Source: Escherichia coli (GTDB lineage: Bacteria; Pseudomonadota; Gammaproteobacteria; Enterobacterales; Enterobacteriaceae). Taken from it: a DNA stretch of 64,000 bases. Of the stretch, positions 9,406 to 40,964 are shown one piece after another (the first letter of the stretch is position 1; every line of letters begins with the position of its first letter). The notes beneath the pieces were generated by a model, which worked only from the letters and a program-made list of their open reading frames with translations, had not been told where the DNA came from and made no database searches. The DNA lies in the NCBI RefSeq assembly GCF_030013595.1, contig NZ_CP122768.1; one strand, given 5' to 3'. A program made the position numbers and the translations under genes.

Positions 9406-9412
9406 TACTCTG

Positions 9413-9440: not shown

Positions 9441-9601
9441 CACTATATTAGTTACAACATCCTATGTGCCTTTATCATTAACGGGTGCCATATGCCACAC
9501 CTGTAAATGTTGTAAGCTTGTAGGTAATTTGTACGTAGCGTCTTGAGAATGTGATCGTAATCACGTTTAATAGGGCGACTTTTCCACGCCTGAAGATAAC
9601 C

Positions 9602-10516: not shown

Positions 10517-10519
10517 GAT

Positions 10520-11278: not shown

Positions 11279-11334
11279 TTTTTTACTCCCGTCAGCGCGT
11301 TACCCCAATTGTAGATAAAATTGATAAATTCGCC

Positions 11335-11625: not shown

Positions 11626-11647
11626 GTTTCTTCTCCTTAATCCGCAG

Positions 11648-20050: not shown

Positions 20051-20535
20051 GAGTATTGGTATTCTCATTTCCCTTCTTTTAGAGCTGGCTTGTTAAATGC
20101 CAGCTTGCAAATTCATCGTTCCATCACCAGTACTATATTCAAGTGAAAATTGCTATTTTTCTTAAAGCATTAAGCATAAGCCTTATTTTATAGCGAATAT
20201 TCCTAAAGGCATTAATGGATGAAAAAGGGGTTTAATAAACTTCTTTTTTAGCAATTAGTGCTATTCTTTGTTAAATATGATGATGATAATCTTCTTATTG
20301 AAAGAAACAGTTTTCTTATTAAGCAACAATAACTCATGGTTCATTTTTAAATAAAATAAGAACTATGCAATTTTTAATCTATCGATTCGAAAGTATTAGC
20401 AAATTAGCCAAATTGACACCTTCCCACCTCCAACCAACACTCAATACAGACCTCTGACAACTTAATAAGTTTCATTTTTAACGTCTGATGACTCATCTCT
20501 TTCGTGGCTGTATTGTTTGTATATGGAGCGTTTAT

Positions 20536-26165: not shown

Positions 26166-26432
26166 ATGATGAGCTTTCAGAAGATCTATAGCCCAACGCA
26201 ATTAGCGAATGCAATGAAACTGGTTCGTCAGCAAAATGGCTGGACGCAGAGCGAGCTGGCGAAAAAAATTGGTATTAAGCAGGCGACGATTTCCAATTTC
26301 GAAAACAACCCTGACAATACCACGCTGACGACCTTTTTTAAGATTTTACAGTCGCTTGAACTCTCAATGACGCTATGCGACGCGAAAAATGCCTCGCCAG
26401 AATCAACAGAACAGCAAGATCTGGAGTGGTAA
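26166..26432 (+). CDS. hipB: Antitoxin/repressor HipB (88 aa, XRE-type HTH)
   Basis: MMSFQKIYSPTQLANAMKLVRQQNGWTQSELAKKIGIKQATISNFENNPDN...; the ORF track starts at an upstream TTG, the true start is the ATG at 26166. Confidence 0.9.
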   Translation: MMSFQKIYSPTQLANAMKLVRQQNGWTQSELAKKIGIKQATISNFENNPDNTTLTTFFKILQSLELSMTLCDAKNASPESTEQQDLEW

Positions 26433-27242
26433 TGCCTAAACTTGTCACTTGGATGAACAACCAGCGGGTAGGCGAGTTAACGAAGTTAGCCAACGGCGCG
26501 CACACCTTTAAGTATGCACCGGAGTGGTTAGCCAGCCGTTATGCCAGACCGTTGTCACTTTCGCTGCCATTGCAGAGGGGGAATATCACCTCTGATGCCG
26601 TATTTAACTTCTTCGATAACCTGTTACCCGATAGCCCGATTGTACGTGACCGGATCGTTAAACGTTATCATGCCAAATCCAGACAACCGTTTGATTTATT
26701 GTCAGAAATAGGGCGAGACAGCGTTGGTGCCGTGACGTTAATACCCGAAGACGAAACCGTAACGCATCCGATAATGGCATGGGAAAAGCTTACTGAAGCC
26801 AGACTTGAAGAAGTATTAACGGCTTATAAAGCAGATATCCCTCTGGGCATGATTAGAGAAGAAAATGACTTTTATTCAGGCTGGCGGCAGTTATCGACTC
26901 ACGCCATTTTACGACATCATTTCAGCATTTCCGGTATTGGGTGGCGCAGGAATACACATCAGCGATCTCAAACTGGCAATGGGGCTTAACGCATCCAAAG
27001 GCAAAAAAACGGCAATCGATAAAATTTATCCGCGACATTTTCTGGCGACAGCAAAGTTGCTGAAATTTCCGGAAGTGCAGATGCATGAAATCCTGAGTGA
27101 CTTTGCCAGAATGATTCCGGCAGCACTGGATAACGTGAAGACTTCATTACCGACAGATTTTCCGGAGAACGTGGTGACGGCAGTTGAAACCAATGTGTTG
27201 AGGTTGCACCGTCGGTTAAGCCGAGAATACGGTATTAAGTAA
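26432..27242 (+). pseudogene. hipA: hipA toxin kinase gene with an internal out-of-frame deletion (about 0.5 kb missing)
   Basis: N-terminal 150 residues (MPKLVTWMNNQRVGELTK...GMIREENDF) then the frame breaks near 26870-26878; the C-terminal 125 residues (FIQAGGSYRLTPFYDIISAF...LSREYGIK) continue in a different frame. Locus is 811 bp versus about 1323 bp for intact hipA. Confidence 0.8.
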
Positions 27243-27461
27243 GATATGGGGTTTGGCCGTTGTTAATGAGCAGGACAATCATGACCGCCAACGACTGGAT
27301 TCTCCCTTGGTTTATGTTGGTGCGCATAATGTATATTATGTTAAATAGCCTACGATGGTAAACAACTTCATAAATCTCCATTGCCTTTCACGAAATCAAC
27401 AGGTTAACGATTTCTAACATCCCTCCCATTTCTTGCGTTAGGTGTAGAGTACATTTACTTC

Positions 27462-28280
27462 ATGTCCGCATCAACAATGAGGTTATCTATGTACTCGCTC
27501 AACCAACTAGTTGCCATCAACCACAAACGGCAATGGATTCTGATGGACACGGAAACCTGCTTACCGTTGTTGTACCCACTCAGATATCACATCGATCATT
27601 TGGCTTTTCGTTCATTGTCCACGCAGTCTGCTTCGCTGCAGGCCGTTAAGTTCTTTTACGAATTTTGGTTGCAGAAACACGGCGTCACGTTTTGCTATAG
27701 CTTCTATGCTTCTGGCCACAACCCGTGCATTGCTATTGAGGAAATGTCGGCATTTTCTCACTATCTGGAGAATGGTCGCGTAAGCCAATCAAATTTATTG
27801 GCATTCACTCCAGTCTCCACTTCCCATAGTTTTATCAACGCAGCGCGATTTCGTGCAGTAGCGCAGTTTATTGCTTTTTTGATTAACACGTATGTATCGC
27901 CGGTATATCGGGATGATTCTCCCAAAGCATTATCACTCCAGGCTTCCCGGTTACATACTCGCCTGCGCTTTTGTCGTGACAGTTATCGAGCGTTAACACC
28001 GGGAAAGCATTCTAACCATCGTCATATCCATCAGGGGTTTCAGAGTATGAACCGTGAAATGGTGATCAGTCTGTACACGATTATTGCTCCCTGCTCTAGC
28101 CAAAAATATAACCCATTAAATCCCTTCCCCACCAGAAACACCCAGTTTCGCAACTTTTTGATTATTCGCCTGTTACTGAATTATGGATTGCGAATAGGTG
28201 AATTATTGCTGTTGGAATGCAATTCTATAAAATCAAATATAAAAAAGGATAAGTTTAGTTTGATTGTAACTACAACTTGA
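27462..28280 (+). CDS. Tyrosine recombinase, N-terminal part (Tn554 TnpA-like / GInt integrase 1); probably disrupted
   Basis: 272-aa ORF ending shortly after a box-I-like segment (FLIIRLLLNYGLRIGELLLLECNSI); the catalytic C-terminal motifs are in the next ORF. Confidence 0.55.
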   Translation: MSASTMRLSMYSLNQLVAINHKRQWILMDTETCLPLLYPLRYHIDHLAFRSLSTQSASLQAVKFFYEFWLQKHGVTFCYSFYASGHNPCIAIEEMSAFSHYLENGRVSQSNLLAFTPVSTSHSFINAARFRAVAQFIAFLINTYVSPVYRDDSPKALSLQASRLHTRLRFCRDSYRALTPGKHSNHRHIHQGFQSMNREMVISLYTIIAPCSSQKYNPLNPFPTRNTQFRNFLIIRLLLNYGLRIGELLLLECNSIKSNIKKDKFSLIVTTT

Positions 28281-28305
28281 ATTTAGTCACTCTGCACCGT
28301 TTTAT

Positions 28306-28947
28306 GTGTCCAGGTCGATTAACCAGGTCATCCTTAGTTTCAGTCCGCCAGATTATCAGGCCGCCGTAGCGCGTGGCGAAGCGGCTCTACCAATTATTAC
28401 GCCGACCGACTTGCGCCACAACGTGGGGCACTCACTGGCTATGCAAGGGGTCAGCGCCGAGGAAATCGCGCATATTCTGGGACATACCTCCCTTACTGTT
28501 GCCAAGTATTACATTTTGGCGACACCTGCGCTGGCACTGATTCGAGCCAAAGCGTTGGGTACCAATCCGGTATGGCAAAATATGGTAGCTATGATGTTGA
28601 CTGGTGAACTGACCTCTTCAACGAAATGGCAAGGCCAGCGCGTGGTCGGCATAATCGGTGATCAGTTGCATGATGGGATTGGTGGTTGCTCCAGAGATAA
28701 TGGCGACTGCCCGTTCAGTGAAGTACGCTGCTGCTACGGCTGCCTGTATTATCGCCCCTTTACTGATGGTGACCATCAGGCTGTGCTGGAGAGTGTAGTT
28801 AAAGAAGTCGATGAATTGATCTCCATTTCAGACAGTGTTGGTAACGCCCGCAATCCACTTATTTCCATCCATGAAACCACACAATTTGAAATTCAATCCG
28901 TGATTGCCCGTTGCCGCTTTCGTCAGGAAAAAGGCGGTGTGCGATGA
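28306..28947 (+). CDS. Tyrosine recombinase, C-terminal part (catalytic box II); continuation of the previous ORF
   Basis: Contains DLRHNVGHSLAMQGVSAEEIAHILGHTSLTVAKYY (R-H...H...Y catalytic signature). Separated from the upstream ORF by about 25 nt with a stop; the R-to-HxxR spacing looks shorter than usual. Confidence 0.55.
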   Translation: MSRSINQVILSFSPPDYQAAVARGEAALPIITPTDLRHNVGHSLAMQGVSAEEIAHILGHTSLTVAKYYILATPALALIRAKALGTNPVWQNMVAMMLTGELTSSTKWQGQRVVGIIGDQLHDGIGGCSRDNGDCPFSEVRCCYGCLYYRPFTDGDHQAVLESVVKEVDELISISDSVGNARNPLISIHETTQFEIQSVIARCRFRQEKGGVR

Positions 28948-31310
28948 AAAAATATTTTGCGCAGTTTCACGCCTTTATCACCGAGCAGCAAAGCTGGTTT
29001 GAACAGCATCTGGCGACAGACTTCGAGCAGTCATGGGATGATCCTGTCTGGGTCTGCGGCAGCAATGGTAGTGGCTGGTTACGTGGTAATGGCAAAAATA
29101 AATTACGCTTTGATGAAATCAGCCGTACCAAAGGTATTGAGGGGCGCCATGCAGTGGCAGAAGACTATGCCCGGTTTATGAAAGCCCTGCTGGTACTAGT
29201 GTATCGGAGGCGAAATCGTAGCATATCCCCAGCGGTGGCTGTGGCAACGCTGATGATTTTGAAGCGCTGGTACCACTCGCTATTTGAGATGACCGGGCAA
29301 ACTCACCCAGTGTATCTAACCACCGGGGTAATTCAACGGTCAATGGATAGCCTCAGCGCAGCTTCGTCTCCAGGGGATCCCAATACCGCCAATTACAAAG
29401 GACGCTGTGTCAGTCTGCAAAAAATGGTTAATCACCAGTCATTCACGCTGGTGACACTGCAATATGTGTCTGATGCACAATATACCAATCAAACCAACCT
29501 GACCCGCAAAGCCCGGGAAACCATGGCTCTGAAACAGCAGGACAAGCTGACAGATACCACTACCGATGGTGAAGAGGCGTTGATTACCATTCGCGGTTTT
29601 CTGAACATCGTCGAATTAATCCAGCGGGTGGAAAGTGATGCTGAGAAAATTGCGTTAAATTGCCTGTTGTTATTGGTTATCACCGGCTTTCGCTCCATTG
29701 AAGCGTTTAATCTCAGACAGGATGCGCTGTTTAAACGCCAGATTGATGATCCGGCAATCCGCAAGCGGTTTCAGGACAAGGGATTACCCGATTATTTCCT
29801 TGGTATCCGTTATATTGGTGTCAAAGGTGCTGGGGAGCGAACGCATTGGGTAGAACCGCTGGCTGTACCGCTGGTCGAGAGTATATTCAGTTCCGTTAAA
29901 ATATTGACCGCACCAAAACGCAGTCATCTGACCTATCTACGGGAGAAATCTTTTACTGATTACCTGCCACAGGCCATCAGCGCCCTACCCGGTGAACAAG
30001 TTGAACTGGATGATGTGGTGACGTACATCACACAAACCGCCTCAAGTTTTCGTGGCCGGGCAGGACAACGAGACAAAACATCCAAAGCCCTCAACAAACG
30101 AGGTGTGCTGCCCGTTCTAGAAATGCCAGGGCCGAAAAACAGCAAATCTATCTATTATTCCAAGACTGACCTTAATCATTACATCAAGACCGAATTTGGC
30201 CTGACGGATGCCAACGAACCCTGTACGCACGCCTGGATGGAAAATGGCAAACGTTACGAAGTTAACTACGAAGACCTGTTATTTCTACATGAGAAGGGTT
30301 CGCTGGCATTAAAGCGCACACTGGCTTTGCTGGCTATACCGATACCATTCACTAACACACTTATGAATAAATTTTTAGGCAATGTTGAGCCTGATGGATC
30401 AGTATTCAGCAAATATCAATTACTGGAAGAGAATGGTACCCCCACCCGGATGCGTACCCACATTCCCCGGCACAACATCAATACCTTTCTTGCTATTGCG
30501 GATATCTCTGACCACTTACAGGCAATGTTGATGGGGCGAGTGGACATCACGCAGAATCAGCACTATCAACATCTGGCGCTTGCAGAACGGCGAAAAGCAG
30601 CCTCGTTGGTGCCCTTGCAGCCGATATCGACAGCACTAACTGCCGCGCCCTCTTCGTCCTCCATTGCTACGCCACTGGAAATCGTCAAACGGACCGGCCA
30701 ACTGGCGGTCACGAAACACATGACTTTGGACAATACCATCAAAGCCAACCTGCATACTTTTGACGATCGGGATGATGTAGCCAGGTTTGTCGAGGCGTCA
30801 TTTGCTGACGGCCTCTTTGAAGATGTTGCTGCCGCCTTTGAAGAAATCCGCGACGCAGAAGGACCAGAGCAAGCCTCTGCCATGGTGGCAAGACATGCCG
30901 TGATGTATCCGCTGAAATTTGGCTCCTGTATGCGGGAAGTTAACCTCTGGGGATGTCCTTATCGACTGAAATGCCAGAGTGCTGCCTTTTGTGAACATTT
31001 CACGCTGACAGGCCGGATAGATGAGCTACCCAATCTGATTGCCAAAAAACAGGCGTTACAGCAAGCACATTCGAAGTTGACCCAACTTACACAACATCAG
31101 CCTGACTACCAGACCAGACTGGCCGACATCGAACGACGGTTACAGCAACTCGAGGCAATACAAGCACAATGGCAGCGTCGTGCCAAGACTCAACAACTGG
31201 TTGCTGCGGAGAGTGTGTTGTCTGGTGGAGTAATCACCGAGGGCAAAGTCCGTACACTGGCCCAGCTTTTTGCACTTGAATACCAACAATTGATGCAGGA
31301 GAACGACTGA
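28944..31310 (+). CDS. Large tyrosine recombinase (Tn554 TnpB-like / GInt integrase 2), about 788 aa
   Basis: Box I-like LLLLVITGFRSIEAFNLRQD and box II-like THIPRHNINTFLAIADISDHLQAMLMGRVDITQNQHYQHL; ATG at 28944 overlaps the upstream stop (ATGA), suggesting translational coupling. Confidence 0.65.
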   Translation: MKKYFAQFHAFITEQQSWFEQHLATDFEQSWDDPVWVCGSNGSGWLRGNGKNKLRFDEISRTKGIEGRHAVAEDYARFMKALLVLVYRRRNRSISPAVAVATLMILKRWYHSLFEMTGQTHPVYLTTGVIQRSMDSLSAASSPGDPNTANYKGRCVSLQKMVNHQSFTLVTLQYVSDAQYTNQTNLTRKARETMALKQQDKLTDTTTDGEEALITIRGFLNIVELIQRVESDAEKIALNCLLLLVITGFRSIEAFNLRQDALFKRQIDDPAIRKRFQDKGLPDYFLGIRYIGVKGAGERTHWVEPLAVPLVESIFSSVKILTAPKRSHLTYLREKSFTDYLPQAISALPGEQVELDDVVTYITQTASSFRGRAGQRDKTSKALNKRGVLPVLEMPGPKNSKSIYYSKTDLNHYIKTEFGLTDANEPCTHAWMENGKRYEVNYEDLLFLHEKGSLALKRTLALLAIPIPFTNTLMNKFLGNVEPDGSVFSKYQLLEENGTPTRMRTHIPRHNINTFLAIADISDHLQAMLMGRVDITQNQHYQHLALAERRKAASLVPLQPISTALTAAPSSSSIATPLEIVKRTGQLAVTKHMTLDNTIKANLHTFDDRDDVARFVEASFADGLFEDVAAAFEEIRDAEGPEQASAMVARHAVMYPLKFGSCMREVNLWGCPYRLKCQSAAFCEHFTLTGRIDELPNLIAKKQALQQAHSKLTQLTQHQPDYQTRLADIERRLQQLEAIQAQWQRRAKTQQLVAAESVLSGGVITEGKVRTLAQLFALEYQQLMQEND

Positions 31311-31744
31311 TGCGCGGCAAGGAACTGGACACACTGATCGAGCACGAATTACAACTGATGCTGGTTGAAGGCTTTGACAAGTCCCCTATTTCCGCCAAGG
31401 CCCTGCATATTCGGCTCAAGGCAAAAGGTATCGTTAACGGTGGTTTAAGTACGCTGAGCAGCCTTGAGCGAAAACGCCTAATTGCTGCCTATGTTGATCA
31501 GCAACTTGGCCCATTGAATCTACGCCCAAAAGAAAAACAGCAATACGTCAACCGCAAAACCCGTCAGGCCTTGCTGGCCAGAAACCAGCAGTTGCAGGCG
31601 GAAGTCAGTGAGCTGCGAGACCAACTGGCGCAGAATACCCTGTCGTTGATAGAAATTGTCAAAGCGGTAAAAATCAATACAGTTATTCCGGTGGAAAGTC
31701 TGTTGGCTAAACATGTAATTCGGGAGTTACACAAGTCGTTATAA
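31310..31744 (+). CDS. Small coiled-coil protein (Tn554 TnpC-like / GInt accessory protein)
   Basis: 144-aa ORF whose ATG overlaps the upstream stop (TGATG); predicted coiled-coil (QQLQAEVSELRDQLAQNTLSL). Third gene of a recombinase-recombinase-small protein module. Confidence 0.5.
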   Translation: MRGKELDTLIEHELQLMLVEGFDKSPISAKALHIRLKAKGIVNGGLSTLSSLERKRLIAAYVDQQLGPLNLRPKEKQQYVNRKTRQALLARNQQLQAEVSELRDQLAQNTLSLIEIVKAVKINTVIPVESLLAKHVIRELHKSL

Positions 31745-31908
31745 TGCTGACATAGGAATATTTCGCCGACAGTTTCCCGGTTGTCGGCGAAATGCTGATT
31801 GTAATTTTTCGGCAAAGGGCATGGACGATTTCTTTTCGTTATTCTGCATATTGCTTACCTTCCCAAATTTCTCCAACCGTTAGTTGGAGAAATTAGATGG
31901 GTCGTAAA

Positions 31909-32103
31909 TCATGAATAAACGCCTTGATCTATTCGAAAAATGAGAATTGCAACTTTCAACGCCCCCTCTTCTGAGTCCATTATCTCAGAGGACGCTTTCC
32001 ACTGTAATGCTCTGTTTGGTTCATTGCACCAGTTTAATGCTGCACTTTCGTTACCTTCAAAAAGATCAATAGCCTTTTGTATAACATCATTTTTTGTCAG
32101 CAT
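31909..32103 (-). CDS. DUF2384-like (Xre/MbcA/ParS antitoxin toxin-binding domain) fragment, likely the frameshifted C-terminus of the upstream XRE protein
   Basis: ...AALNWCNEPNRALQWKASSEIMDSEEGALKVAILIFRIDQGVYS resembles the DUF2384 C-terminal signature; overlaps the XRE ORF by 17 nt across an A6 tract (T6 at 32090-32095 on the + strand). Confidence 0.45.
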   Translation of the reverse strand: MLTKNDVIQKAIDLFEGNESAALNWCNEPNRALQWKASSEIMDSEEGALKVAILIFRIDQGVYS

Positions 32104-32419
32104 GTTTTACACCTGAAGACGTTTTGAGTGCTTCGATAAGGCTACTTCGCTCTTCCTCTGTCATCCGAGATATGAGTAATGCAAGTTCTGCTGTTGTCTG
32201 ATCATCACAAAAAAGGTAGTTCAACGGCACGTTTAACTCTGCTGCCATCCGTCGAAGCGTATCAATATCGGGGACATGGCGTCCTTTCTCATAATGATTC
32301 ATACGACTGCTAGCCGATGCAGGATCAAAGCCAACAAGGAGACCCAGAGAGCGCTGTGATAAACCAGCCCTGCATCTCGCTTCCTTAAGTCGTTCTGGTA
32401 TCGGATTTTTTTCAGACAC
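32087..32419 (-). CDS. XRE-family HTH DNA-binding protein (110 aa)
   Basis: HTH signature LKEARCRAGLSQRSLGLLVGFDPASASSRMNHYEKGRHVPDIDTLRRMAAELNV. Confidence 0.7.
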   Translation of the reverse strand: MSEKNPIPERLKEARCRAGLSQRSLGLLVGFDPASASSRMNHYEKGRHVPDIDTLRRMAAELNVPLNYLFCDDQTTAELALLISRMTEEERSSLIEALKTSSGVKHADKK

Positions 32420-32503
32420 TGATTCATCTTCATTGGCCTCGAATGCTTAGATTGTCTAAGTATCTGCCATTGTTGTATACTTAGCAATCCTAAGTTAATA
32501 GCC

Positions 32504-33076
32504 TTGTTTTGTCATATGAATAGCCGAGTAACCAACCCTGAGTCGTACATATTTTCTGCAATCATCTTAATTGGCAAAGATAACTTCACCAGTAACGAAG
32601 TAGCAAAAATTCTTATCGAGCGATTTTCACTTCCGAAAAATTATTTAAAGGCAAAAGCTTTTGCTTATAACCAAATTCAATCCCTGGTTAGAAAAGGATT
32701 ATTAAACAAAGTAAGAAAAACAGGCGTGTATCAATATTTATACTCAGTCACAGCAGAATTCAATGTCGCAATAGAGTGCGTGAAATTAATTGAGGCAACC
32801 CCAAAGTCTTCCTGTCAACTTGTTTCAAGTGCTACCAACCATGAACACAGAAATGTAAATATCCAAATAAAGTCTCTTATTGAAAAATACAGCAGTGAAT
32901 TGGCGAAAGTATCAGGAGCAAAGGAGATTTATGAGGAATTGATAGTTGCTGTGCCGAGCAGGGAAAATGAATTCAGGAAGCTTTCTCTTGAACAAGAGAA
33001 AAAACACATCAAGATAAATGAAAAAATAAATACATTAATTGGAATTATTAATCAATCTCTTGCAGTAAGGCAATGA
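32504..33076 (+). CDS. Hypothetical protein (190 aa), AT-rich, divergent from the XRE gene
   Basis: Open frame only; lysine-rich with a possible N-terminal winged-helix-like segment and C-terminal coiled coil. No family recognised. Confidence 0.5.
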   Translation: MFCHMNSRVTNPESYIFSAIILIGKDNFTSNEVAKILIERFSLPKNYLKAKAFAYNQIQSLVRKGLLNKVRKTGVYQYLYSVTAEFNVAIECVKLIEATPKSSCQLVSSATNHEHRNVNIQIKSLIEKYSSELAKVSGAKEIYEELIVAVPSRENEFRKLSLEQEKKHIKINEKINTLIGIINQSLAVRQ

Positions 33077-33891
33077 ATTTTAGCAAGTATTTGAAGCTAA
33101 ATGGAGTCATGAAAAAGAGAGGGCAAAGCCGAACTCCGCCCTCTCCCGTCAAGCACTGATATATCTCATTAAAATGAGATTAACAGCGCGCACTCCTATA
33201 TGCTAGTCGTATATAAATATAATGTCAGCCAGTCCCGGATGCAACTCTTTAATGAAGTTCAGTACTCTCTTTTTTTAGTTATCGAAATGATAGTTGGTAC
33301 AAGGGAACACACGAAGAGGAAAATTGCGATGACTTTGACGCAGAGCATGTTGAGTCTATTATTGCGACCCTCGAAGCTCTGGATGCGTTAGATTTACGCC
33401 ACGGAAGATGGACTGTAAGTATCCCTCCAATAGTGCGACTCACTTACCCAGATTGTAAGTTCAAACGGTCGAAGGCACTAGATTCTGATAAGAATTTGAG
33501 GCGCATGAGTACAGGCATTCGATTGTCAGCTTCTGGGTAGTTGTGGGAATTCTGCTCAAAGTGCCGCTGGCCAAAACATATTGGGCGCTGGTCTGTGGCG
33601 GCAAAATGGTGTCACGTAAAAGATACAGATGTTCCAGTCTATTTTTGCCCAATAACGTGCCCCGGGTTCAGTTTTTTTGCTCGGGACTAAAACGCTTATC
33701 CAGATCAGCCGCCAGCTGTTCAATACTCTTCGTTGAGCCTTTATAAATATACCAATCAAACTGTTAAAAACTCGTTCAAATTCGACCAAATATTATTACT
33801 GGCTGATATTAGTTCGGTTAGGCAAAGCGCAACAAACAACTAAGAAGTGCGCCTCAAAAAATTAATTGTAAGGCGCCCCCCTAAAACACAT

Positions 33892-36219
33892 TTATTCTGT
33901 TATATTTCTTGGCAACATAGAAAAAGATGCTTGAGACAATCCTGCGCGCTTGAATTTATACCGTATATATGTTGACACTTCCATCTCATGGTTTGACAAC
34001 AAAATCTGACGATCTGAAAGCTCTACCCGTAACAAATCACTCAATGAAGCAATGTTAATCTCATCCATTGACTGTACTGGATCATCAATCAGTATAAATG
34101 GATTAAGCGCATATACCCTATTCAATGTTAGGAAAAATGCCAAACCTAATGATGCGATTTGCCCACTACTCATAGACAGGATTGCATCATGATCAGACTT
34201 CAGCGCAGTATTGAATTTGAGTATATCTCCTTTACCGCTCACTATAAACAAACCTAACCCACGCTGATAATTCTGTATGAGTCTTCCACTATATATATGG
34301 AATAACAGCTCTATATCACCAATAGTCTTTTTCGCATACTGTTTCGCAGTGTCGTCCAATTGCCGCCTAAGATTAACAATTTTTGCTTTTATTTTTTTGC
34401 CAGCTTCAATCCTAGAACTGAGCTTATCAAGCTCCGCTACTTTGGACTTGTACTCTTCGCTTTTGAATTTAGAATGAGCGGCTCTGAGATAGGATTCTTT
34501 ATTTTCAAAATCTGAAACACTAAGTGAGGTTATATCTGATGCGTTCAAGAAAGCCATCTCTAAGCTAGATGACCAGTCTAAAGGGAGCACATCCTTTTCT
34601 GGTTTTTTAGCTGTAGCAATAATCCCTTTTGCTTCATTAAACCGTAACAGCAGAGCTGCATCATCAGCCGTAAAACTAAGATCTTTTGATACGCCATAAT
34701 TTACCAACTGCAAAGCCACTTCACTTATGATTGAGAACTTAGATTCTGCTGCTGTGAGAGCCTTAAAAAGCACACTATCGAAATCTTTTGCAACTAGGTC
34801 ACGCTGCTGTGTGAATGCTGTTATCTGTAAATTTAGTAAGTCCTGTATTGACCTTACTGTCTCCTCCAACTTCTGGGCAGAAGCATCTATTTCAGATCGA
34901 ATTCTTTCCGCATTATTTACAGCGGCTTCCTCTAACGCAGCGTAAGTCGCCCATGATAACCCACAGAATGGACAACCGGAAATTTCCAAATCTTCACATT
35001 CTTGGTGTCGCCGCAGCAACTCTGCATGAGCATTTAGTAAATTTACAAGCTTTGCGTTCTTAGCTGCACTATCAGATTTAATTAGATCCCGTGCCTCAAT
35101 GAGACTATTTACACCAACCAAATCAGCAGCGTTCTTAAGACCGTTTAGGTCTACTTCATTTATCTCTGAAGCTGGCTTTCTGAATATCAAAAGATCATGA
35201 TCCAGCCCAACTAGCGTTGACTCCTTTACTTTCAGACCTTCATATCCAGCTACTTCAGAACCCAACTGAAGAGCCAACTTTATATCGACCTCTCTTTTTA
35301 AAAACGCATCAATATTACTATTAGCCTTTCTCGTCAGAACTTCATCAAAGTTCTGATATATTCTAAATATATTCCGTAATTCACGTATCAGAGTTTCAAT
35401 ATCTGTATCATTTACAGCCGATAGAGGCTGTTCAACATCCCAACCAGGTGACGGCGTCGCGGTACTTAACCGCTTGAAGTCAACGGAATTCTCGGCATCT
35501 TGAAACTGACCACTAAGCTGTTTAATTTTTTCATTCAACTCAGCCTGGAGGTCAGTATGCACTTTCCCCGTATAAGATTCCGTAATAATACTTTCTAACT
35601 CGGAGCAATATGATATCTGTCTCGTCAATTTATCGGTATTAATAAGATGCTCAATGCCTTTTTTTCTTTCAGTGGCATCCGTCGAGTACAGGTATCTATT
35701 CTGCCCTTGCTCAAGATAGTTCAATAAAGAGAAATTTTTTAAGAAGTTCTCTCCTAGAATACTCTCTAGTGCTTTAGAATCAAGACTCTCTCCAAACTTA
35801 TCGGAGTCTATACTGCTTATTTCGTAAAGCTTAAAAATAGAGAAGTTATCAGGTGCATTATTATCCGGGTTCGATAAATCCGCTATGGTAGCAACACGAG
35901 CTAGGAAAATTGACTCTCCTGAATCTTGATTTATGAGCTCAGCTCTAATAGCGATGTCGCCCTCTTTATTTCTATTCCAGTATATGTTTTCTTCAAATTG
36001 TTTTTTGCGCGAACGTTTTGCAACTGTTGCATCATTTGTATTGATAATTCTTTGTATAACGCCAGTAAACAAAAGCTCCAACGCATCAAATATGCTAGTT
36101 TTTCCAAAACCATTGGGGCCATCCAAGGTAATCATGGAGGCAGATCGAAAATCAATAGATGTATTTTCAAATGGCTTGAAATTTTCAATCTTGAGGCTGG
36201 ATATTTTCCATTTCTTCAT
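33892..36219 (-). CDS. Rad50/SbcC/SMC-like ABC ATPase with coiled-coil insert and CxxC zinc-hook-like motif (LmuB-like), 775 aa
   Basis: N-terminal Walker A (IENFKPFENTSIDF...LDGPNGFGKTSIFDALELLF), central CPFCG motif in a predicted coiled coil, C-terminal signature/Walker B/H-loop (SSGQIASLG...FILIDDPVQSMD...LLSNHE). Confidence 0.65.
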   Translation of the reverse strand: MKKWKISSLKIENFKPFENTSIDFRSASMITLDGPNGFGKTSIFDALELLFTGVIQRIINTNDATVAKRSRKKQFEENIYWNRNKEGDIAIRAELINQDSGESIFLARVATIADLSNPDNNAPDNFSIFKLYEISSIDSDKFGESLDSKALESILGENFLKNFSLLNYLEQGQNRYLYSTDATERKKGIEHLINTDKLTRQISYCSELESIITESYTGKVHTDLQAELNEKIKQLSGQFQDAENSVDFKRLSTATPSPGWDVEQPLSAVNDTDIETLIRELRNIFRIYQNFDEVLTRKANSNIDAFLKREVDIKLALQLGSEVAGYEGLKVKESTLVGLDHDLLIFRKPASEINEVDLNGLKNAADLVGVNSLIEARDLIKSDSAAKNAKLVNLLNAHAELLRRHQECEDLEISGCPFCGLSWATYAALEEAAVNNAERIRSEIDASAQKLEETVRSIQDLLNLQITAFTQQRDLVAKDFDSVLFKALTAAESKFSIISEVALQLVNYGVSKDLSFTADDAALLLRFNEAKGIIATAKKPEKDVLPLDWSSSLEMAFLNASDITSLSVSDFENKESYLRAAHSKFKSEEYKSKVAELDKLSSRIEAGKKIKAKIVNLRRQLDDTAKQYAKKTIGDIELLFHIYSGRLIQNYQRGLGLFIVSGKGDILKFNTALKSDHDAILSMSSGQIASLGLAFFLTLNRVYALNPFILIDDPVQSMDEINIASLSDLLRVELSDRQILLSNHEMEVSTYIRYKFKRAGLSQASFSMLPRNITE

Positions 36220-36940
36220 GAATCAGAGTCTCGATTAGTTTGTCTGCTTCAATCCCAGATGCAGAAGCATTAAAGATTTTGAGATGAAGACCGGTCAATT
36301 TTTTCTCGGCGAGTGCTTCCTTTACATAAATATCAAGCGGCTTTAGTGAGCTTTCCTTAACAGGAACCTTTACAAATGGAAGCTTTATAAAAATTCTCGC
36401 CGCGACGCTATATAATGTAGGCGATAGTGGTTGATCTCGATATTCTGCAAACATCCTATCATCGACAACAATCGCTGAAACGCTTTCGAAGTTGTGCCCT
36501 TCTAACAACCTAAGCTCTTCCTCGCTGTAATAAAGAAAATATTTTTTAAAATAATATGGATTCTCTTCAATTCCAAACACCTTACTCTCAATTCCATTAA
36601 AATCAACTCGGTGCCTTAATTTATGCAAAATAATCAGATCGGTATTTTTATCGAAAGCAGGATCAGATTTGAATGTTTCAGGAGCATACAGTAACACTAA
36701 TTTATTCAGCACCTGCGGTGATGGTATATTTTCACACTCAACCACAGCGAGGAATCGCTTCCTATCTCCACTATCCTGACTAAAATAAGTCAAAGACTTA
36801 TAATCAACACCTTCAAGACCAGCTAAAGTTTCTCCTGCCGAATACTCTATGGTGACGTCATCTGCTTTAGAATAGTCGCCTGTATTAAACAAAGTAAACT
36901 CATGTTTCAAGGCAGCCTGTAGAACAATATCTTTAATCAT
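36185..36940 (-). CDS. Middle gene of the three-gene operon (251 aa), unknown function, possibly LmuC-like
   Basis: Start overlaps the upstream stop by 8 nt and its 3' end overlaps the downstream ATPase start, indicating translational coupling. No recognisable motif. Confidence 0.5.
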   Translation of the reverse strand: MIKDIVLQAALKHEFTLFNTGDYSKADDVTIEYSAGETLAGLEGVDYKSLTYFSQDSGDRKRFLAVVECENIPSPQVLNKLVLLYAPETFKSDPAFDKNTDLIILHKLRHRVDFNGIESKVFGIEENPYYFKKYFLYYSEEELRLLEGHNFESVSAIVVDDRMFAEYRDQPLSPTLYSVAARIFIKLPFVKVPVKESSLKPLDIYVKEALAEKKLTGLHLKIFNASASGIEADKLIETLIHEEMENIQPQD

Positions 36941-38195
36941 TCAACTTCACCCTCGCCTCTTCCTTTGAAATTATTTTTGCATCAAAGGCTTTAGTTATTT
37001 TGTTACGATCCTTACCCATCAATGAAAACTCATCTTCTACAGCATCCCGCGAAGCTCCGGTAGCTGCACAAAATCGCTCAGCGGGTGAAAAAATATTTGC
37101 TCTAGCTGCGATTAGCCATTGATATTCAACTAAGATATCTATCAGCTCTGGATCGCTTTTCAGCTGCTCTATTAGATCTTCAGCAAACCTATGCTCCCGT
37201 CGAGCATTGTCTGCCGAAATTGCTGTTGGCAAATAAAAATCTCCGGCAGAGCACCTATAGTAAGGAGGCTTTTGCTCACTCAGTGGCGCTTTATCTATAT
37301 CGTAGATCACATCCACATAATCATAAACACTGTTCTCACTCACGACCATTGTGGAAGATCCAAAACATAACGACTTCCACAACCATATAAATGGAGTATC
37401 ACCCAACTCTTTAATCTGATCGTAAACATTTGCAACTTTTTGAATAACAGTTCTATCTGCTGTTTTTTCCATTGTATTGGTATACCCATACAATGATTTA
37501 CAAACGGCCATCCTGGCTTGGAACATTTTGTATACAATGTCGTCTTCATGGGTAGCGGTGAGGCTTAATAACTCTACAATCTTCTCACTTTTTAAAGTTT
37601 GAGTAAACGCGGCTTGTGCGGCGCTCATTAACCCATCCTGATTGCACGCGTGTATATATATTACTTGAGCGGCAATATGACTCTGCAAAGCCTCGAACTT
37701 CAAATTCACTAAAAAATCACTGCAAGGTAACTCTTCGGAAACCAGGTACTTCTCAATTTTTGATTTCGTTTTTTCTTCAACATCTTGGAGATAGCAGTAA
37801 GGCAGTCCATCGTAAGTATAAAATTTAACGACATTCCCATTGCTGCCAACAAAATCAGAAGCATCATCAAGGCGCGCAGATGTATGAAAATATCTTTTGG
37901 TAGTCTTATCACACAACATATATGTAGATGCAGCTTTTTCGAGAGCCTCCCTATAGGCAGCTCTTTTATCATCTGCTAGCGCTTTTACCTGATGCGTAGA
38001 AACTGCAACTCCATTTTCAATTATCGAAAAATCATCAATGCTGTCGATTTGCAACTCAAACGACATTTTATTGAGCACACATTCTATGGAATGATAAAGC
38101 GCTAAATGCCCTTGATAAATAAACCCACTCCATGTAGGTGCAGCTGTATGAGGATGGGAGGAAGCCGATTTCGACATGCAATATGTCCTAGGCAA
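36933..38195 (-). CDS. Candidate effector of a three-gene defense operon: PD-(D/E)xK nuclease-like protein (possibly Cap4/DUF4297-like, LmuA-like), 420 aa
   Basis: N-terminal region WSGFIYQGHLALYHSIECV...QIDSIDDFSIIENGVAVSTHQVK has the E..D..E/QxK spacing of restriction-endonuclease-fold proteins; first gene of an overlapping operon; AT-rich. Confidence 0.5.
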   Translation of the reverse strand: MPRTYCMSKSASSHPHTAAPTWSGFIYQGHLALYHSIECVLNKMSFELQIDSIDDFSIIENGVAVSTHQVKALADDKRAAYREALEKAASTYMLCDKTTKRYFHTSARLDDASDFVGSNGNVVKFYTYDGLPYCYLQDVEEKTKSKIEKYLVSEELPCSDFLVNLKFEALQSHIAAQVIYIHACNQDGLMSAAQAAFTQTLKSEKIVELLSLTATHEDDIVYKMFQARMAVCKSLYGYTNTMEKTADRTVIQKVANVYDQIKELGDTPFIWLWKSLCFGSSTMVVSENSVYDYVDVIYDIDKAPLSEQKPPYYRCSAGDFYLPTAISADNARREHRFAEDLIEQLKSDPELIDILVEYQWLIAARANIFSPAERFCAATGASRDAVEDEFSLMGKDRNKITKAFDAKIISKEEARVKLND

Positions 38196-38524
38196 ATTTA
38201 GAGACAGAGTCAGAAGTAACCTTCTAACTCAGTAGAATATGATCTTAATTTCTGTATCCGATGTTTATATTTTTTGTTGAACGCGCCCAGCGGCGTTATG
38301 AAAACTTCCTTGATTGTCATTTTTATGCATTCTCTTGATCGATAGGAATTTAAATCCCAAAAAGATTAAAAAAACACCCAAAAACGGATGTTTATTCGAC
38401 ACTGCCTGCGTGCCATGAGTGCACCGCCATCAATTAAATGGATCTTATCGAGTGATACTGTATATCACTGATGGTTTTTTACTCCATTCCCCTGAAAATG
38501 GACGCAACTTCCCCGATGCGGCTC

Positions 38525-39757
38525 TCAGCCGCACACCCGCTGTTGCGCCAGTGGCTCATGCATCAGGACCAGCTCTGTCAGACGGTAGCCCCGCTTCAGC
38601 CCCGTAAAACGCATCTGACATCCGCACAGGATGCACTTTAGCGGGTCAACCTTCAGTAACCGCTGATACATCCCTCTCCACCTGATTTGCATCGCCGTCT
38701 TTCTCACCGTCTCCGTTATGACGTACACAACATCTTCCAGTAACCGGCGCTTTACCGGACTCAGGAAACCGTAGTACCTCACCATACGGAACCCCTTATC
38801 CGCCACATGCCAGGAGAACCTTTCCATAAACTCATCACCACTCATCACCAGGTATTCTTCCCGTTTTGTCCGGTGACTGTTGTAACGCAGACCAATTTCA
38901 TCCTGACCAGCATAGTGCTCCAGACGGCTCATCGGCACCGGCGGTTTTTTCAGGTAAGAGCCGAAGTACACCGCCACATGTGTGGCGTTATCCATCACCC
39001 GGGATACGTTGACATTCCAGCCCCGCCGGTAATGACTGTCCAGGAAGCGATTCCAGTCCCGTCTGCTGCTTCCTTCAACTGCCAGCGCATCCGGTATCAC
39101 CAGCTCCGGGTATTTTCGTGACAGTAACCACGTTATCCTGTAACGCCACATGCTCATCACCTTACGGGCGTAAAAATGAAGGTTTTTCCAGGTGTGGTCT
39201 GGTGTCACGCCGCCGGCCGTTGTCGACAGGTGAATGTGCGGATGCCACTGCTGGTCACGTCCCCATGTGTGGATGACCGTGAATATCCCCGGCACCACAT
39301 CTGCCTGGCGGCAGATTTCCTGTATCACATCCGCAGCAATGCGGCTCATCTCTGCCAGTAACCACCGGTTGTGGAACACCAGGGACCAGTACTGGCAGGG
39401 AAGTGTGAACACAATATGCTGCCACGGACAGTCGGGAACCAGACTCAGCAGATACTGTATCCACTGTGCGCCAGCCTTCACTCCGCAGTGCGGGCAGGAG
39501 CGACTTTTACACCGGAAGCAGACCTTTTTTGTGTGGCAACAGTCCGGAGATGAACAGCACCACTGTGTGTACCCCATCAGCGTGGTTCCGCACGCCATGA
39601 TTTTTGTCACCGACTCAATGACTACCGGACGCACTGAACCTTCCGGTTGTTTCTCCAGCCAGTTAAGCCAGCGGTTTCCCTGCTGAAAAATGTCGGCAAA
39701 ACGGGGAAGCATCAGAAGGGCGGGGGGACTCCGTCCGGCCAGTGAACCGTGCCACAC
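38525..39757 (-). CDS. tnpA: IS91-family transposase (HUH rolling-circle type)
   Basis: 410-aa ORF with N-terminal Cys-rich zinc-binding region (CHTKKVCFRCKSRSCPHCG) and HUH-like motif HTWGRDQQWHPHIH. Confidence 0.7.
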   Translation of the reverse strand: MWHGSLAGRSPPALLMLPRFADIFQQGNRWLNWLEKQPEGSVRPVVIESVTKIMACGTTLMGYTQWCCSSPDCCHTKKVCFRCKSRSCPHCGVKAGAQWIQYLLSLVPDCPWQHIVFTLPCQYWSLVFHNRWLLAEMSRIAADVIQEICRQADVVPGIFTVIHTWGRDQQWHPHIHLSTTAGGVTPDHTWKNLHFYARKVMSMWRYRITWLLSRKYPELVIPDALAVEGSSRRDWNRFLDSHYRRGWNVNVSRVMDNATHVAVYFGSYLKKPPVPMSRLEHYAGQDEIGLRYNSHRTKREEYLVMSGDEFMERFSWHVADKGFRMVRYYGFLSPVKRRLLEDVVYVITETVRKTAMQIRWRGMYQRLLKVDPLKCILCGCQMRFTGLKRGYRLTELVLMHEPLAQQRVCG

Positions 39758-40077
39758 TCCGGGCAGTACATGCCGCCGGCGCTGATACCGGCAAGAATGG
39801 TCGCAAACTCCCGCTCCGTGCAGCGGGCTATTTCAGGATACCCTTCGTCATCGACACGAACAAACCAGAAGACCAGCTTTTTGTTTCCGGCATCCACAAA
39901 GAAGGGAATATTCAGGTCTGCGCAGCACTCAACGGCATCGTCAAAATTATCAAAGCGCAGAGCTTCTGCGTCTTCTTCGTCAAAGAAGTCATCGTCGTGA
40001 AGCTTCACGACATAGCGGGGAAGTTTGCTTCTTTGAGGGGCAGGTTTTCGTTTACGGGGTTTAGCTGAACGGGACAT
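39712..40077 (-). CDS. IS91 ORF121-like accessory protein
   Basis: 121-aa ORF immediately upstream of and overlapping the transposase gene, the size and position of IS91 orf121. Confidence 0.5.
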   Translation of the reverse strand: MSRSAKPRKRKPAPQRSKLPRYVVKLHDDDFFDEEDAEALRFDNFDDAVECCADLNIPFFVDAGNKKLVFWFVRVDDEGYPEIARCTEREFATILAGISAGGMYCPECGTVHWPDGVPPPF

Positions 40078-40964
40078 ATAACTACCTGAAAGACAATGAT
40101 ATTGTCTGTTTTTATAACGGTAATTTCAGGCCATGACAAGCCGCAGCCGCCAAGCTGCCTACTCGAGCGATATCGCTATGATATCACCGAATGTAACATA
40201 CCTGTAGGGTCAAAAAAAGGGTCAGCCAAACATTCTGGAGTGTTCGGTATCGTTGGTACCATTCATGCAAAATGGACTTAAATCTTAAGAAAGACACTCC
40301 ATTAGCTTAAGCTTCCCTACCTTACCCTACCAATACACCTAGCCAGCCGTGAGAACGCTACCGCCATCAGAGGCATTAGTCCCGATTAAGTATCGATGCA
40401 ACCAAATGTTACCAAAATTCATGAATTGTTCAAGAAGGCAATCAGATAATCCCTAAAGCTTTATGGGCCTGGTTATGCGATTACATTGGGAAATGGTTCA
40501 TGAACAGAAGTAGAGCAAGCTGCCAAGAAATGCTCATAAGAGGCGAATTTCCTGTTAGTTCATGAAGCCACCTGGAAGTGAATTCATCTTTCTATTAAAA
40601 ATATTCATTTAAAGCAAAGAGATATGTCATCTGTGGTTTATGAACTGGATTCTCGCTCAACATAAGTTAAATGTGGTGGGTTTGTTCTTAAGTTCATGTG
40701 TTCCGCTCTTTCAGTAGCTTAACTGATGAATCAGTCAGCAGCTCTTGCCGTGCAAGCTACGCGGCGGTTCGTACCAGATTGGCCACCTCCATCTCCTGGT
40801 TCGCTTTCCCCTCCCCCCGGTAAACCTCACCCAACGTTAATTAATGATGTCAGTATGTGGGCGCTATCCTTGTATGTAAAATCCACTGACGATTATGCCC
40901 ATCTGTGAAAAAAACTCACAATGCCATTCGATGCATCTCCATACTGAACGAGGCGTTATCGTCT

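What the first reader, a model, noticed from the sequence alone, without database searches (positions are those of the whole stretch)
33892..38195. Translationally coupled three-gene operon: nuclease-like protein, 251-aa protein, zinc-hook Rad50/SMC-like ATPase (candidate Lamassu/DdmABC-like defense system)
Three minus-strand genes (420 aa, 251 aa, 775 aa) overlap at both junctions (8 nt and 35 nt), so they form one operon. The last gene has Walker A, a CxxC motif (CPFCG) inside a predicted coiled coil, and ABC signature/Walker B/H-loop at the C-terminus, i.e. a Rad50/SbcC-like hook ATPase. The first gene has a PD-(D/E)xK-like arrangement near its N-terminus. Order (effector, small protein, SMC-like ATPase) and sizes fit type II Lamassu / Vibrio DdmABC. 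The operon is strongly AT-rich, sits on a recombinase-bearing island next to IS91, and is absent from K-12 as far as I recall. The middle protein has no motif I recognise, so this may be a divergent variant rather than a canonical Lamassu.
Basis: partly seen in the sequence, partly recalled or inferred. Interest (0 to 1): 0.85.

Follow-up and report, generated by a model that had tools for sequence, protein, structure and literature searches.

The report
Long-type Lamassu (Cap4) anti-phage operon
The three overlapping genes are an intact Lamassu phage/plasmid defence system of the recognised "long", Rad50-like subtype, carried on a mobile island; standard tools already annotate it, so it is a correct call rather than a discovery.

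Summary
Three minus-strand genes overlap by 8 and 35 nt, and GC is 0.39 against about 0.50 in the flanks.

It is not the DdmABC subtype (Cap4-CTD7-MC3, LmuB about 600 aa). It belongs to the published "long" Rad50/Mre11-like subfamily: LmuB 775 aa, one CxxC, Walker B hhhhDD, CTD1 and MC1. All 119 full-length homologues share these LmuB features.

The operon is cargo of a recombinase-bearing element inserted between hipA and a LysR gene. It occurs in 14 of 5,426 complete E. coli genomes and at 100% identity on 17 large enterobacterial plasmids. RefSeq already names the genes as ABC-three-component proteins.

Caveats:
- An IS91 element lies 167 bp upstream of lmuA, only in this window.
- No structure of a long Lamassu was found in the PDB copy searched.
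- I found no report of a tested long Cap4 system.

The parts
36933..38177 (-). lmuA: effector with an N-terminal Cap4-type PD-(D/E)xK nuclease and an ABC-3C CTD1 C-terminal domain (414 aa from ATG 38177; the mechanical ORF from TTG 38195 gives 420 aa)
37983..38033 (-). Codons for the predicted LmuA nuclease active site, D49 ... Q63-V-K65
   Evidence: Invariant in 19 homologues down to 29% identity. These residues align with the D...QVK motif of a Hachiman nuclease chain (8zue_A). The equivalent lysine is essential in V. cholerae (K57) and S. enterica (K68) LmuA (PMC12663957; bioRxiv 10.1101/2025.03.14.643221).
36185..36940 (-). lmuC: ABC-3C Middle Component 1 (MC1), 251 aa. It has a conserved N-terminal segment, a variable linker (about residues 20-57), a conserved core and an acidic tail.
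   Evidence: PADLOC LmuC 2.8e-14. Pfam MComp1 2.5e-9. Alignment A3.
33892..36219 (-). lmuB: long SMC/Rad50-like ABC ATPase, 775 aa
   Evidence: PADLOC LmuB 7.2e-69. Pfam AAA_23, AAA_15 and SMC_N. AF2 model pLDDT 82. Foldseek: Rad50 2.6e-13, LmuB 9ux7_A 7e-7, SbcC 1.3e-6.
36097..36120 (-). LmuB Walker A (GPNGFGKT, residues 34-41)
   Evidence: Present in 119 of 119 full-length homologues.
34963..34974 (-). LmuB CPFC (C416-C419), the putative zinc hook
   Evidence: Both cysteines are invariant. There is exactly one CxxC in 119 of 119 homologues, at relative position 0.52-0.54. In the model it lies in loop 409-422 between helices 370-408 and 423-478.
33985..34173 (-). LmuB C-terminal head motifs: signature MSSGQ (683), Walker B FILIDD (708-713), H-loop H744
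   Evidence: This block aligns to E. coli SbcC in hhalign (probability 84%).
38345..40161 (-). IS91-family insertion 167 bp upstream of the lmuA ATG. It is not part of the system but may affect its expression.
   Evidence: Transposase matches NF033538 at 1.7e-85. Junctions mapped against the uninterrupted allele L002. None of the 14 complete E. coli genomes with the operon has the insertion.
27348..40662 (.). Mobile island that carries the operon, inserted between hipA and a LysR-family gene. It is flanked by an imperfect GTTAAAT repeat.
   Evidence: Empty site in strain 300033 (L003) and junction sequences. Intact copies of the element are in E. coli MB57 and on a Klebsiella plasmid.
31909..33076 (.). 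Genes that travel with the operon: a ParS/Xre-like 64-aa gene (31909-32103, -), an HTH 'control protein' of 110 aa (32087-32419, -), and a hypothetical 190-aa gene (32504-33076, +). Whether they belong to the system is unknown.
   Evidence: They are co-conserved with lmuACB in L001, L002, L009 and L011. NCBIfam Xre_ParS_antitoxin 1.7e-12. PADLOC Control_protein 3.1e-25.

Best explanation
The operon is an intact lmuA-lmuC-lmuB Lamassu defence system of the long, Rad50/Mre11-like subfamily (Cap4-CTD1 effector, MC1 middle component, 775-aa zinc-hook LmuB). It is carried as cargo on a mobile island.

Likely mechanism:
1. LmuB dimerises through its CPFC hook and its ATPase heads and acts as a sensor of foreign DNA. 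By analogy with short Lamassu, the signals would be free dsDNA ends or replication intermediates of phages and plasmids.
2. LmuC and the CTD1 domain of LmuA tie one inactive LmuA to the LmuB dimer.
3. DNA sensing plus ATP turnover frees or re-arranges LmuA, so that Cap4 nuclease domains pair up into an active site.
4. The active nuclease cuts DNA indiscriminately and aborts the infection.

Shown here: the identity and intactness of all three components, the catalytic motifs, the hook position, the conserved gene order and the defence-island context.

Inferred from published work on short Lamassu: the DNA-end trigger, the sequestration-and-release step, tetramerisation and abortive infection.
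For: - Family assignment: PADLOC LmuA, LmuC and LmuB models hit. Pfam gives Cap4_nuclease plus CTD1, MComp1, and SMC_N/AAA_23.
- Hook: the CxxC sits at the coiled-coil apex.
- Long-type criteria from PMC12663957 are met in 119 of 119 homologues: length 770-788 aa, one CxxC, Walker B hhhhDD.
- Active site: the LmuA residues D49 and Q63-x-K65 are invariant.
- Synteny: the same three-gene order and 8-nt overlap persist at 55% and 37% LmuB identity in Pseudomonas, next to RM systems, Gabija and a NERD protein.
- Distribution: sporadic and mobile. It occurs in 14 of 5,426 complete E. coli genomes and on 17 plasmids at 100% identity. In MB57 and on the Klebsiella plasmid the element lies beside type I RM genes.
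- Intactness: the proteins differ by 0-2 residues from the other copies.
- Mechanism of short Lamassu: PMC12663957 (sections read), bioRxiv 10.1101/2025.03.14.643221 and bioRxiv 10.1101/2025.06.23.660979.
Against: - No experiment exists on this operon or, as far as the searched literature shows, on any long Cap4-CTD1-MC1 system. PMC12663957 cites only one validated long Lamassu, a hydrolase-protease system from B. cereus B4077.
- Published AF3 models of long Lamassu place LmuA and LmuC near the LmuB heads, not near the hook as in the solved short complexes. The activation step may therefore differ.
- HMM profiles of these proteins find no solved Lamassu chain by sequence.
- Foldseek on the LmuA model gave only weak E-values, 0.03 at best.
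- An IS91 element sits 167 bp upstream of lmuA, and no sigma-70-like promoter was found between it and the start codon. Expression in this strain is therefore unproven.
Confidence: 0.85

Rival explanations
1. It has the same components but a different mechanism. As a Rad50/Mre11-like long Lamassu, it would keep LmuA and LmuC bound at the LmuB heads, as SbcD sits on SbcC. It would then cut the sensed DNA locally and in complex, rather than releasing LmuA to form free tetramers that degrade all DNA.
For: - Published AF3 models of five long Lamassu complexes put LmuA and LmuC around the LmuB heads, with long LmuC positioned like the SbcD C-terminal domain (PMC12663957).
- LmuB here matches Rad50 best and keeps a single hook and a DD Walker B.
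- CTD1 is a mixed helix and beta-sheet domain, unlike the five- to six-helix bundle described for short CTDs.
Against: - The effector is the same Cap4 nuclease family that needs dimerisation or oligomerisation in CBASS and in short Lamassu (PMC12663957).
- There is no sequence-level similarity between LmuC and SbcD (hhalign probability 0.3%).
- No complex model could be computed here.
Confidence: 0.25
2. The genes are intact but transcriptionally silent or misregulated in this strain. The IS91 insertion would have cut the operon off from its native upstream region, making it a carried but non-functional defence system here.
For: - IS91 is inserted 167 bp upstream of the lmuA ATG, only in this window.
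- No consensus sigma-70 promoter lies in the remaining 167 bp.
- A terminator-like hairpin at the IS end faces the operon (38393-38372).
- The island's integrase genes are also decayed here.
Against: - All three ORFs are full length with every catalytic residue, and they differ by 0-2 residues from the uninterrupted copies. The insertion is therefore recent or tolerated.
- The promoter scan is a crude consensus search. It also found nothing in the displaced upstream DNA, so the native promoter may be non-consensus and may still lie in the 167 bp.
Confidence: 0.2
3. It is a housekeeping SbcCD/Rad50-type DNA-repair paralogue rather than an immune system.
For: LmuB is most similar in fold to Rad50. 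Several source databases label homologues 'exonuclease SbcC' or 'recombinase RecF'.
Against: - NCBIfam sbcC scores 18.6 against a cut-off of 478.5, and recF scores 35.5 against 172.
- There is no Mre11/SbcD phosphoesterase partner. The partners are Cap4-CTD1 and MC1.
- It is present in only 0.26% of complete E. coli genomes.
- It is AT-rich, island-borne and plasmid-borne.
- It sits among RM and Gabija systems in other genera.
Confidence: 0.02

Closest known systems
Long Lamassu / Rad50-Mre11-like Lamassu subfamily (LmuA CTD1-5, LmuC MC1, LmuB about 800 aa), as defined by Haudiquet et al. 2025 (PMC12663957) and Li et al. 2025 (bioRxiv 10.1101/2025.03.14.643221)
   Same: Every sequence-defined feature was tested and matches: LmuB of 775 aa, a single CxxC, Walker B hhhhDD, Pfam CTD1 and MComp1, a Cap4 effector (one of the four or five effector types listed for long Lamassu), and lmuA-lmuC-lmuB order.
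   Different: Nothing detectable differs. This is an ordinary member. The subfamily itself has no solved structure in the PDB copy searched. The literature I searched cites only one validated member, a B. cereus B4077 hydrolase-protease system with a different effector.
Vibrio cholerae DdmABC (LmuACB) and Salmonella enterica LmuACB: short Lamassu of the Cap4-CTD7-MC3 type
   Different: Here LmuB is about 175 aa longer than the roughly 600-aa average given for short LmuB (PMC12663957) and keeps a single hook, whereas V. cholerae LmuB has none. Walker B is DD rather than D[Q/S/T/E]. The LmuA C-terminal domain is CTD1 rather than CTD7, and LmuC is MC1 rather than MC3. No sequence-level hit to the solved chains was found, even with profiles.
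SbcCD / Rad50-Mre11 DNA-end processing complexes
   Same: LmuB shares the zinc-hook coiled-coil ABC ATPase architecture. Its best Foldseek hit is Rad50 (2.6e-13), and the signature/Walker B/H-loop block aligns with E. coli SbcC (probability 84%).
   Different: There is no Mre11/SbcD phosphoesterase. The nuclease is an unrelated Cap4 PD-(D/E)xK domain. The coiled coil is shorter. The operon is accessory and mobile rather than core. The LmuC-SbcD link claimed from structures is not visible by sequence.
CBASS Cap4 effectors and other Cap4/DUF4297 nucleases (Hachiman HamA-type, Avs3, HerA-DUF4297)
   Different: There is no SAVED/CARF ligand sensor. Control is expected to come from the LmuB/LmuC complex through CTD1, not from a cyclic oligonucleotide.

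Membership tests
Lamassu (LmuACB / ABC-3C) | SMC/Rad50-like LmuB ATPase: split ABC head with Walker A, signature and Walker B, separated by a coiled coil | tested here: met
   PADLOC LmuB 7.2e-69. Pfam SMC_N and AAA_23. Motifs invariant. Long antiparallel helices in the AF2 model. Foldseek hits to Rad50, SMC and LmuB with probability 1.00.
Lamassu (LmuACB / ABC-3C) | LmuA: an N-terminal effector domain fused to an ABC-3C C-terminal domain | tested here: met
Lamassu (LmuACB / ABC-3C) | LmuC middle component encoded between lmuA and lmuB | tested here: met
   PADLOC LmuC 2.8e-14. Pfam MComp1 2.5e-9. Same gene order in Pseudomonas relatives.
Lamassu (LmuACB / ABC-3C) | Protects against phage and/or plasmids, with dependence on the LmuB ATPase, the LmuA effector and LmuC | not testable with these tools
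   This needs plaque and transformation assays. No report on these proteins was found.
Long Lamassu (Rad50/Mre11-like subfamily) | LmuB of about 800 aa, against about 600 aa in short Lamassu | tested here: met
   775 aa here. The 119 homologues span 770-788 aa with a median of 777.
Long Lamassu (Rad50/Mre11-like subfamily) | Exactly one CxxC zinc-hook motif at the coiled-coil apex | tested here: met
   One CPFC at 416-419. One CxxC in 119 of 119 homologues. It lies in the apex loop between helices 370-408 and 423-478. Zinc binding itself was not tested.
Long Lamassu (Rad50/Mre11-like subfamily) | Walker B consensus hhhhDD | tested here: met
   FILIDD at 708-713. Present in 119 of 119 homologues.
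Long Lamassu (Rad50/Mre11-like subfamily) | LmuA CTD of class CTD1-CTD5 and LmuC of class MC1 | tested here: met
   Pfam CTD1 (PF20276) 3.3e-25 and MComp1 (PF20289) 2.5e-9.
Long Lamassu (Rad50/Mre11-like subfamily) | LmuC resembles the C-terminal, SbcC/Rad50-binding region of SbcD/Mre11 | tested here: inconclusive
Short Lamassu Cap4-CTD7-MC3 (DdmABC / S. enterica LmuACB) | LmuB of about 600 aa with a deviant Walker B, hhhhD[Q/S/T/E] | tested here: not met
   LmuB is 775 aa and Walker B is DD.
Short Lamassu Cap4-CTD7-MC3 (DdmABC / S. enterica LmuACB) | LmuA CTD7 and LmuC MC3 | tested here: not met
   Pfam reports CTD1 and MComp1 only. Profiles of LmuA, LmuB and LmuC find no solved V. cholerae or Salmonella Lamassu chain by sequence.
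Short Lamassu Cap4-CTD7-MC3 (DdmABC / S. enterica LmuACB) | Cap4 nuclease effector with a catalytic lysine | tested here: met
SbcCD / Rad50-Mre11 repair complex | Adjacent Mre11/SbcD calcineurin-like phosphoesterase nuclease | tested here: not met
   The neighbouring genes are Cap4-CTD1 and MC1. No phosphoesterase gene is on the island.
SbcCD / Rad50-Mre11 repair complex | SbcC equivalog score and core-genome distribution | tested here: not met
   NCBIfam sbcc scores 18.6 bits against a cut-off of 478.5. The operon is in 14 of 5,426 complete E. coli genomes.

The most novel reading that the evidence does not exclude
Long Cap4-CTD1-MC1 Lamassu, of which this operon is a well-preserved and easily cloned E. 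coli/Klebsiella representative, may use an activation route different from the solved short systems. LmuA and LmuC would sit at the LmuB heads in an SbcCD-like arrangement, with the zinc hook needed for sensing. This would make it a living intermediate between a DNA-repair complex and an immune sensor. Its presence at 100% identity on large conjugative plasmids would also imply that it tolerates its carrier plasmid, unlike the plasmid-eliminating DdmABC.
Probability: 0.25. Interest if true: 0.55.

Novelty: already known. Interest (0 to 1): 0.25.

Why it matters
As a finding it mainly confirms that the first-stage reader can recognise a defence operon from raw sequence. The system is detected by PADLOC and Pfam models and is already named in RefSeq.

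Its residual value is practical. It is an intact enterobacterial representative of the long, Rad50/Mre11-like Lamassu subfamily. I found no solved structure for that subfamily in the PDB copy searched, and no validated Cap4 member in the literature searched. It circulates unchanged between chromosomes and large plasmids of Klebsiella, Escherichia, Raoultella and Citrobacter, at least one of which carries 'tmex' in its name.

It would be a convenient model for testing whether long Lamassu works like short Lamassu or more like SbcCD. It would also help explain how a system whose V. cholerae relative DdmABC restricts plasmids can be carried on plasmids.

Tried and rejected
1. Single-sequence phmmer of each protein against PDB sequences gave no meaningful hit. 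The one LmuA hit, to a designed repeat protein, is spurious.
2. Profile HMM searches against the PDB found only Rad50/SMC/PtuA N-terminal P-loop matches for LmuB. LmuA gave only a sub-threshold hit to a Hachiman nuclease (E 0.12), and LmuC gave nothing. Sequence alone could not link the operon to the solved Lamassu complexes, so fold comparison was needed.
4. hhalign of the LmuC profile against E. coli SbcD was negative (probability 0.3%), so the published SbcD-CTD relationship could not be reproduced at sequence level.
5. Consensus promoter scans found no sigma-70-like site upstream of lmuA, either in the 167 bp left by the IS91 insertion or in the displaced upstream DNA. The native promoter remains unidentified.
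6. A literature search for the RefSeq protein accessions found nothing.
7. The phage genome collection had no match, so the operon is not prophage- or phage-borne in that collection.
8. I considered and rejected a housekeeping SbcC/RecN/RecF paralogue, because the NCBIfam scores are far below the cut-offs.
9. Pfam on the island's 799-aa gene gave no significant domain. Phage_integrase scored E 3.7, so I do not call it a third recombinase.

Full report
**1. Observation**

- The window has three minus-strand ORFs: 36933-38195 (420 aa from TTG), 36185-36940 (251 aa) and 33892-36219 (775 aa).
- The junctions overlap by 8 nt (ATGATTAA) and 35 nt.
- The lmuA start is more likely the ATG at 38177, giving 414 aa. 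An AGGA lies 8 nt upstream, and this start matches RefSeq annotation and the homologue N-termini.
- GC is 0.389 over the operon against about 0.50 in the flanks.
- From base composition, ORFs of these lengths would stay open with probability 5e-14, 9e-9 and 1e-25.
- LmuA has invariant D49 and Q63-V-K65.

**2. Identity of the proteins**

- PADLOC-DB matches all three proteins to Lamassu models: LmuA 7.4e-21, LmuC 2.8e-14 and LmuB 7.2e-69.
- Pfam gives Cap4_nuclease (8.3e-5) plus ABC-3C CTD1 (3.3e-25) for the first protein. It gives ABC-3C Middle Component 1 (2.5e-9) for the second and AAA_23/AAA_15/SMC_N for the third.
- NCBIfam has no model for the first two. For the ATPase, the recF and sbcC models score far below their cut-offs: 35.5 against 172, and 18.6 against 478.5.
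- The LmuA AlphaFold2 model is confident (pLDDT 86.8, pTM 0.80).
  - Foldseek ranks Cap4 first but weakly (E 0.03).
- The LmuB model (pLDDT 82.1) has N- and C-terminal head halves joined by long antiparallel helices.
  - The invariant cysteines lie in loop 409-422, between helices 370-408 and 423-478. This is the apex, where a zinc hook belongs.
  - Foldseek's best match is Rad50 (2.6e-13). MukB, Smc5/6, JetC, LmuB (9ux7_A, 7e-7) and SbcC (1.3e-6) all match with probability 1.00.

**3. Which Lamassu**

- The solved and tested systems are V. cholerae DdmABC, S. enterica LmuACB and B. cellulasensis LmuAB. They are Cap4-CTD7-MC3 or CTD12 systems with LmuB of about 600 aa.
- Haudiquet et al. (PMC12663957) define a separate 'long' clade. 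Its features are LmuB of about 800 aa, always one CxxC, Walker B hhhhDD, and a longer LmuC and LmuA CTD. Its effectors include Cap4.
- Li et al. (bioRxiv 10.1101/2025.03.14.643221) describe the same split. Their Rad50/Mre11-like subfamily has LmuA CTD1-5, Mre11-like LmuC MC1 and a larger LmuB.
- This operon meets every sequence criterion of that clade. So do all 119 full-length LmuB homologues retrieved: 770-788 aa, exactly one CxxC at relative position 0.52-0.54, and Walker A and hhhhDD present in all.
- The split is deep. Neither single sequences nor family profiles find any solved Lamassu chain by sequence.
- The LmuA CTD in my model mixes helices with a small beta-sheet, and LmuC has a conserved N-terminal segment followed by a variable linker. 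Both agree with the published description of long-type CTDs and long LmuC.
- The proposed LmuC-SbcD relationship is not visible by profile comparison (probability 0.3%). LmuB aligns with E. coli SbcC only over the signature/Walker B/H-loop block (probability 84%).

**4. Conservation and context**

- The Cap4-CTD1 / MComp1 / SMC order, with the same 8-nt first overlap, recurs at 55% and 37% LmuB identity in Pseudomonas. There it lies next to a type III-like RM pair, Gabija (OLD-TOPRIM ATPase plus UvrD helicase), a type IIG-like methyltransferase/restriction pair and a NERD protein.
- Among complete E. coli genomes, the full operon is in 14 of 5,426 at 99.9% identity. RefSeq annotates it as 'ABC-three component system protein / middle component 1 / AAA family ATPase'. 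K-12 is not among the 14.
- The island was mapped against an empty site (strain 300033, L003). It spans about 27348-40662, between hipA and a LysR-family gene, and is flanked by an imperfect GTTAAAT repeat.
- Intact copies of the element exist in E. coli MB57 and on Klebsiella plasmid NZ_CP113174.1. They carry two full-length integrases (446-463 aa and 517-521 aa), a 788-aa gene and a 144-aa gene. Next come a ParS/Xre-like gene (missing in MB57, where an IS911 and another small gene lie at that position), an HTH gene, a hypothetical gene and lmuACB.
- In the window, the two integrase genes are reduced to 272-aa and 213-aa fragments.
- The operon is 100% identical on 17 large plasmids of Klebsiella, Escherichia, Raoultella and Citrobacter. 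Fifteen are predicted to be conjugative. It is absent from the phage collection.
- The three proteins differ by 0-2 residues from these other copies, and no catalytic residue is affected.

**5. Peculiarity of this copy**

- An IS91-family element (38345-40161; transposase NF033538, 1.7e-85) is inserted 167 bp upstream of the lmuA ATG.
- None of the other genomes has this insertion.
- No consensus promoter was found in the remaining 167 bp or in the displaced DNA.
- A hairpin plus T-run at the IS end faces the operon.
- Expression in this strain is therefore an open question.

**6. Mechanism**

Shown here: the components, their catalytic and hook motifs, their co-conservation and their defence-island setting.

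Inferred from short Lamassu:
- A LmuB dimer with LmuC holds one inactive LmuA through its C-terminal domain.
- dsDNA ends or phage replication intermediates, together with slow ATP turnover, trigger release.
- Released LmuA tetramerises so that two Cap4 domains form one active site.
- Indiscriminate DNA cleavage then aborts the infection.

For long Lamassu the only published architecture is predicted, with LmuA and LmuC near the heads as in SbcCD. The activation step is therefore the least certain part.

My estimates are about 0.9 that this is a long-type Lamassu defence operon and about 0.5 that it follows the release-and-tetramerise route specifically.

**7. Novelty and verdict**

- Nothing here lies outside known categories, and standard pipelines would label the operon.
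- Interest is low (0.25).
- The residual interest is that I found no solved structure of this subfamily in the PDB copy searched and no tested Cap4 member in the literature searched. A plasmid-borne Lamassu is also a neat experimental handle.

Noticed in passing
window 27348-40662; L009 (E. coli MB57) 3541-24900; L011 (Klebsiella plasmid NZ_CP113174.1) 1124-13286: The Lamassu operon is cargo of a mobile element of about 11.5 kb. Its integration module is four tightly packed genes: two tyrosine integrases, a gene of about 788 aa and a 144-aa gene. The element is intact on an IncFIB/IncHI1B Klebsiella plasmid and in E. coli MB57, where a type I RM system is added. In E. coli it occupies the hipA/LysR-gene site. 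The 799-aa ORF in the window has no significant Pfam domain (Phage_integrase E 3.7).
   Followed up: partly
window 27462-28947: The two integrase genes of the island are reduced to 272-aa and 213-aa fragments, against 446-463 aa and 517-521 aa in intact copies. The island is probably immobilised in this strain. Strain HCP5S3_I2 shows the same decay.
   Followed up: partly
window 38345-40161: An IS91-family element (transposase 38525-39757, plus a 121-aa ORF at 39712-40077) is inserted after ...TCTCTTGA, 167 bp upstream of lmuA. It is unique to this window among the genomes that carry the operon. The IS end matches many E. coli plasmids at about 94%.
   Followed up: partly
window 26375-26989, breakpoint at 26871/26872: hipA of the hipBA toxin-antitoxin pair carries an internal deletion of about 510 bp relative to three other E. 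coli strains (L001, L002, L003). This leaves a 204-aa ORF instead of 440 aa.
   Followed up: no
window 20488-25955: The ECSE_1600-family autotransporter, a single 5.4-kb gene in strain LR-48, is split into two ORFs here (20488-24558 and 24555-25955). This suggests a frameshift.
   Followed up: no
window 31909-33076: Three small genes always accompany lmuACB in E. coli and Klebsiella copies. One is a 110-aa HTH protein that matches PADLOC 'Control_protein' (3.1e-25) and CapH (1.2e-8). One is a 64-aa fragment like the C-terminus of ParS/Xre RES-type antitoxins, with no RES toxin nearby. The third is a 190-aa protein with no family hit. The HTH protein could be a local regulator of the defence operon. 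HTH_3/HTH_31 genes also lie near the Pseudomonas homologues.
   Followed up: partly
L004-L006 (P. aeruginosa contigs) 1-12040; L007 (Pseudomonas sp.) 1-8319: Distant homologues of the operon sit in dense defence islands. On one side is a ResIII helicase plus N6_N4 methyltransferase, and on the other a Gabija-like OLD-TOPRIM ATPase plus UvrD helicase. In L007 the neighbours are a BsuBI/PstI-type restriction enzyme with a methyltransferase, and a NERD/Zn-ribbon protein.
   Followed up: no
plasmid hits H33-H40, e.g. NZ_CP113174.1 'pTSYCC10-2_tmex_229k': The operon is 100% identical on 17 plasmids, those listed being 212-306 kb, from Klebsiella (12), Escherichia (3), Raoultella (1) and Citrobacter (1). 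Several come from chicken or farm-environment isolates, and the plasmid names indicate tmexCD-toprJ resistance plasmids. A member of a family with known anti-plasmid activity is thus travelling on large conjugative plasmids.
   Followed up: no
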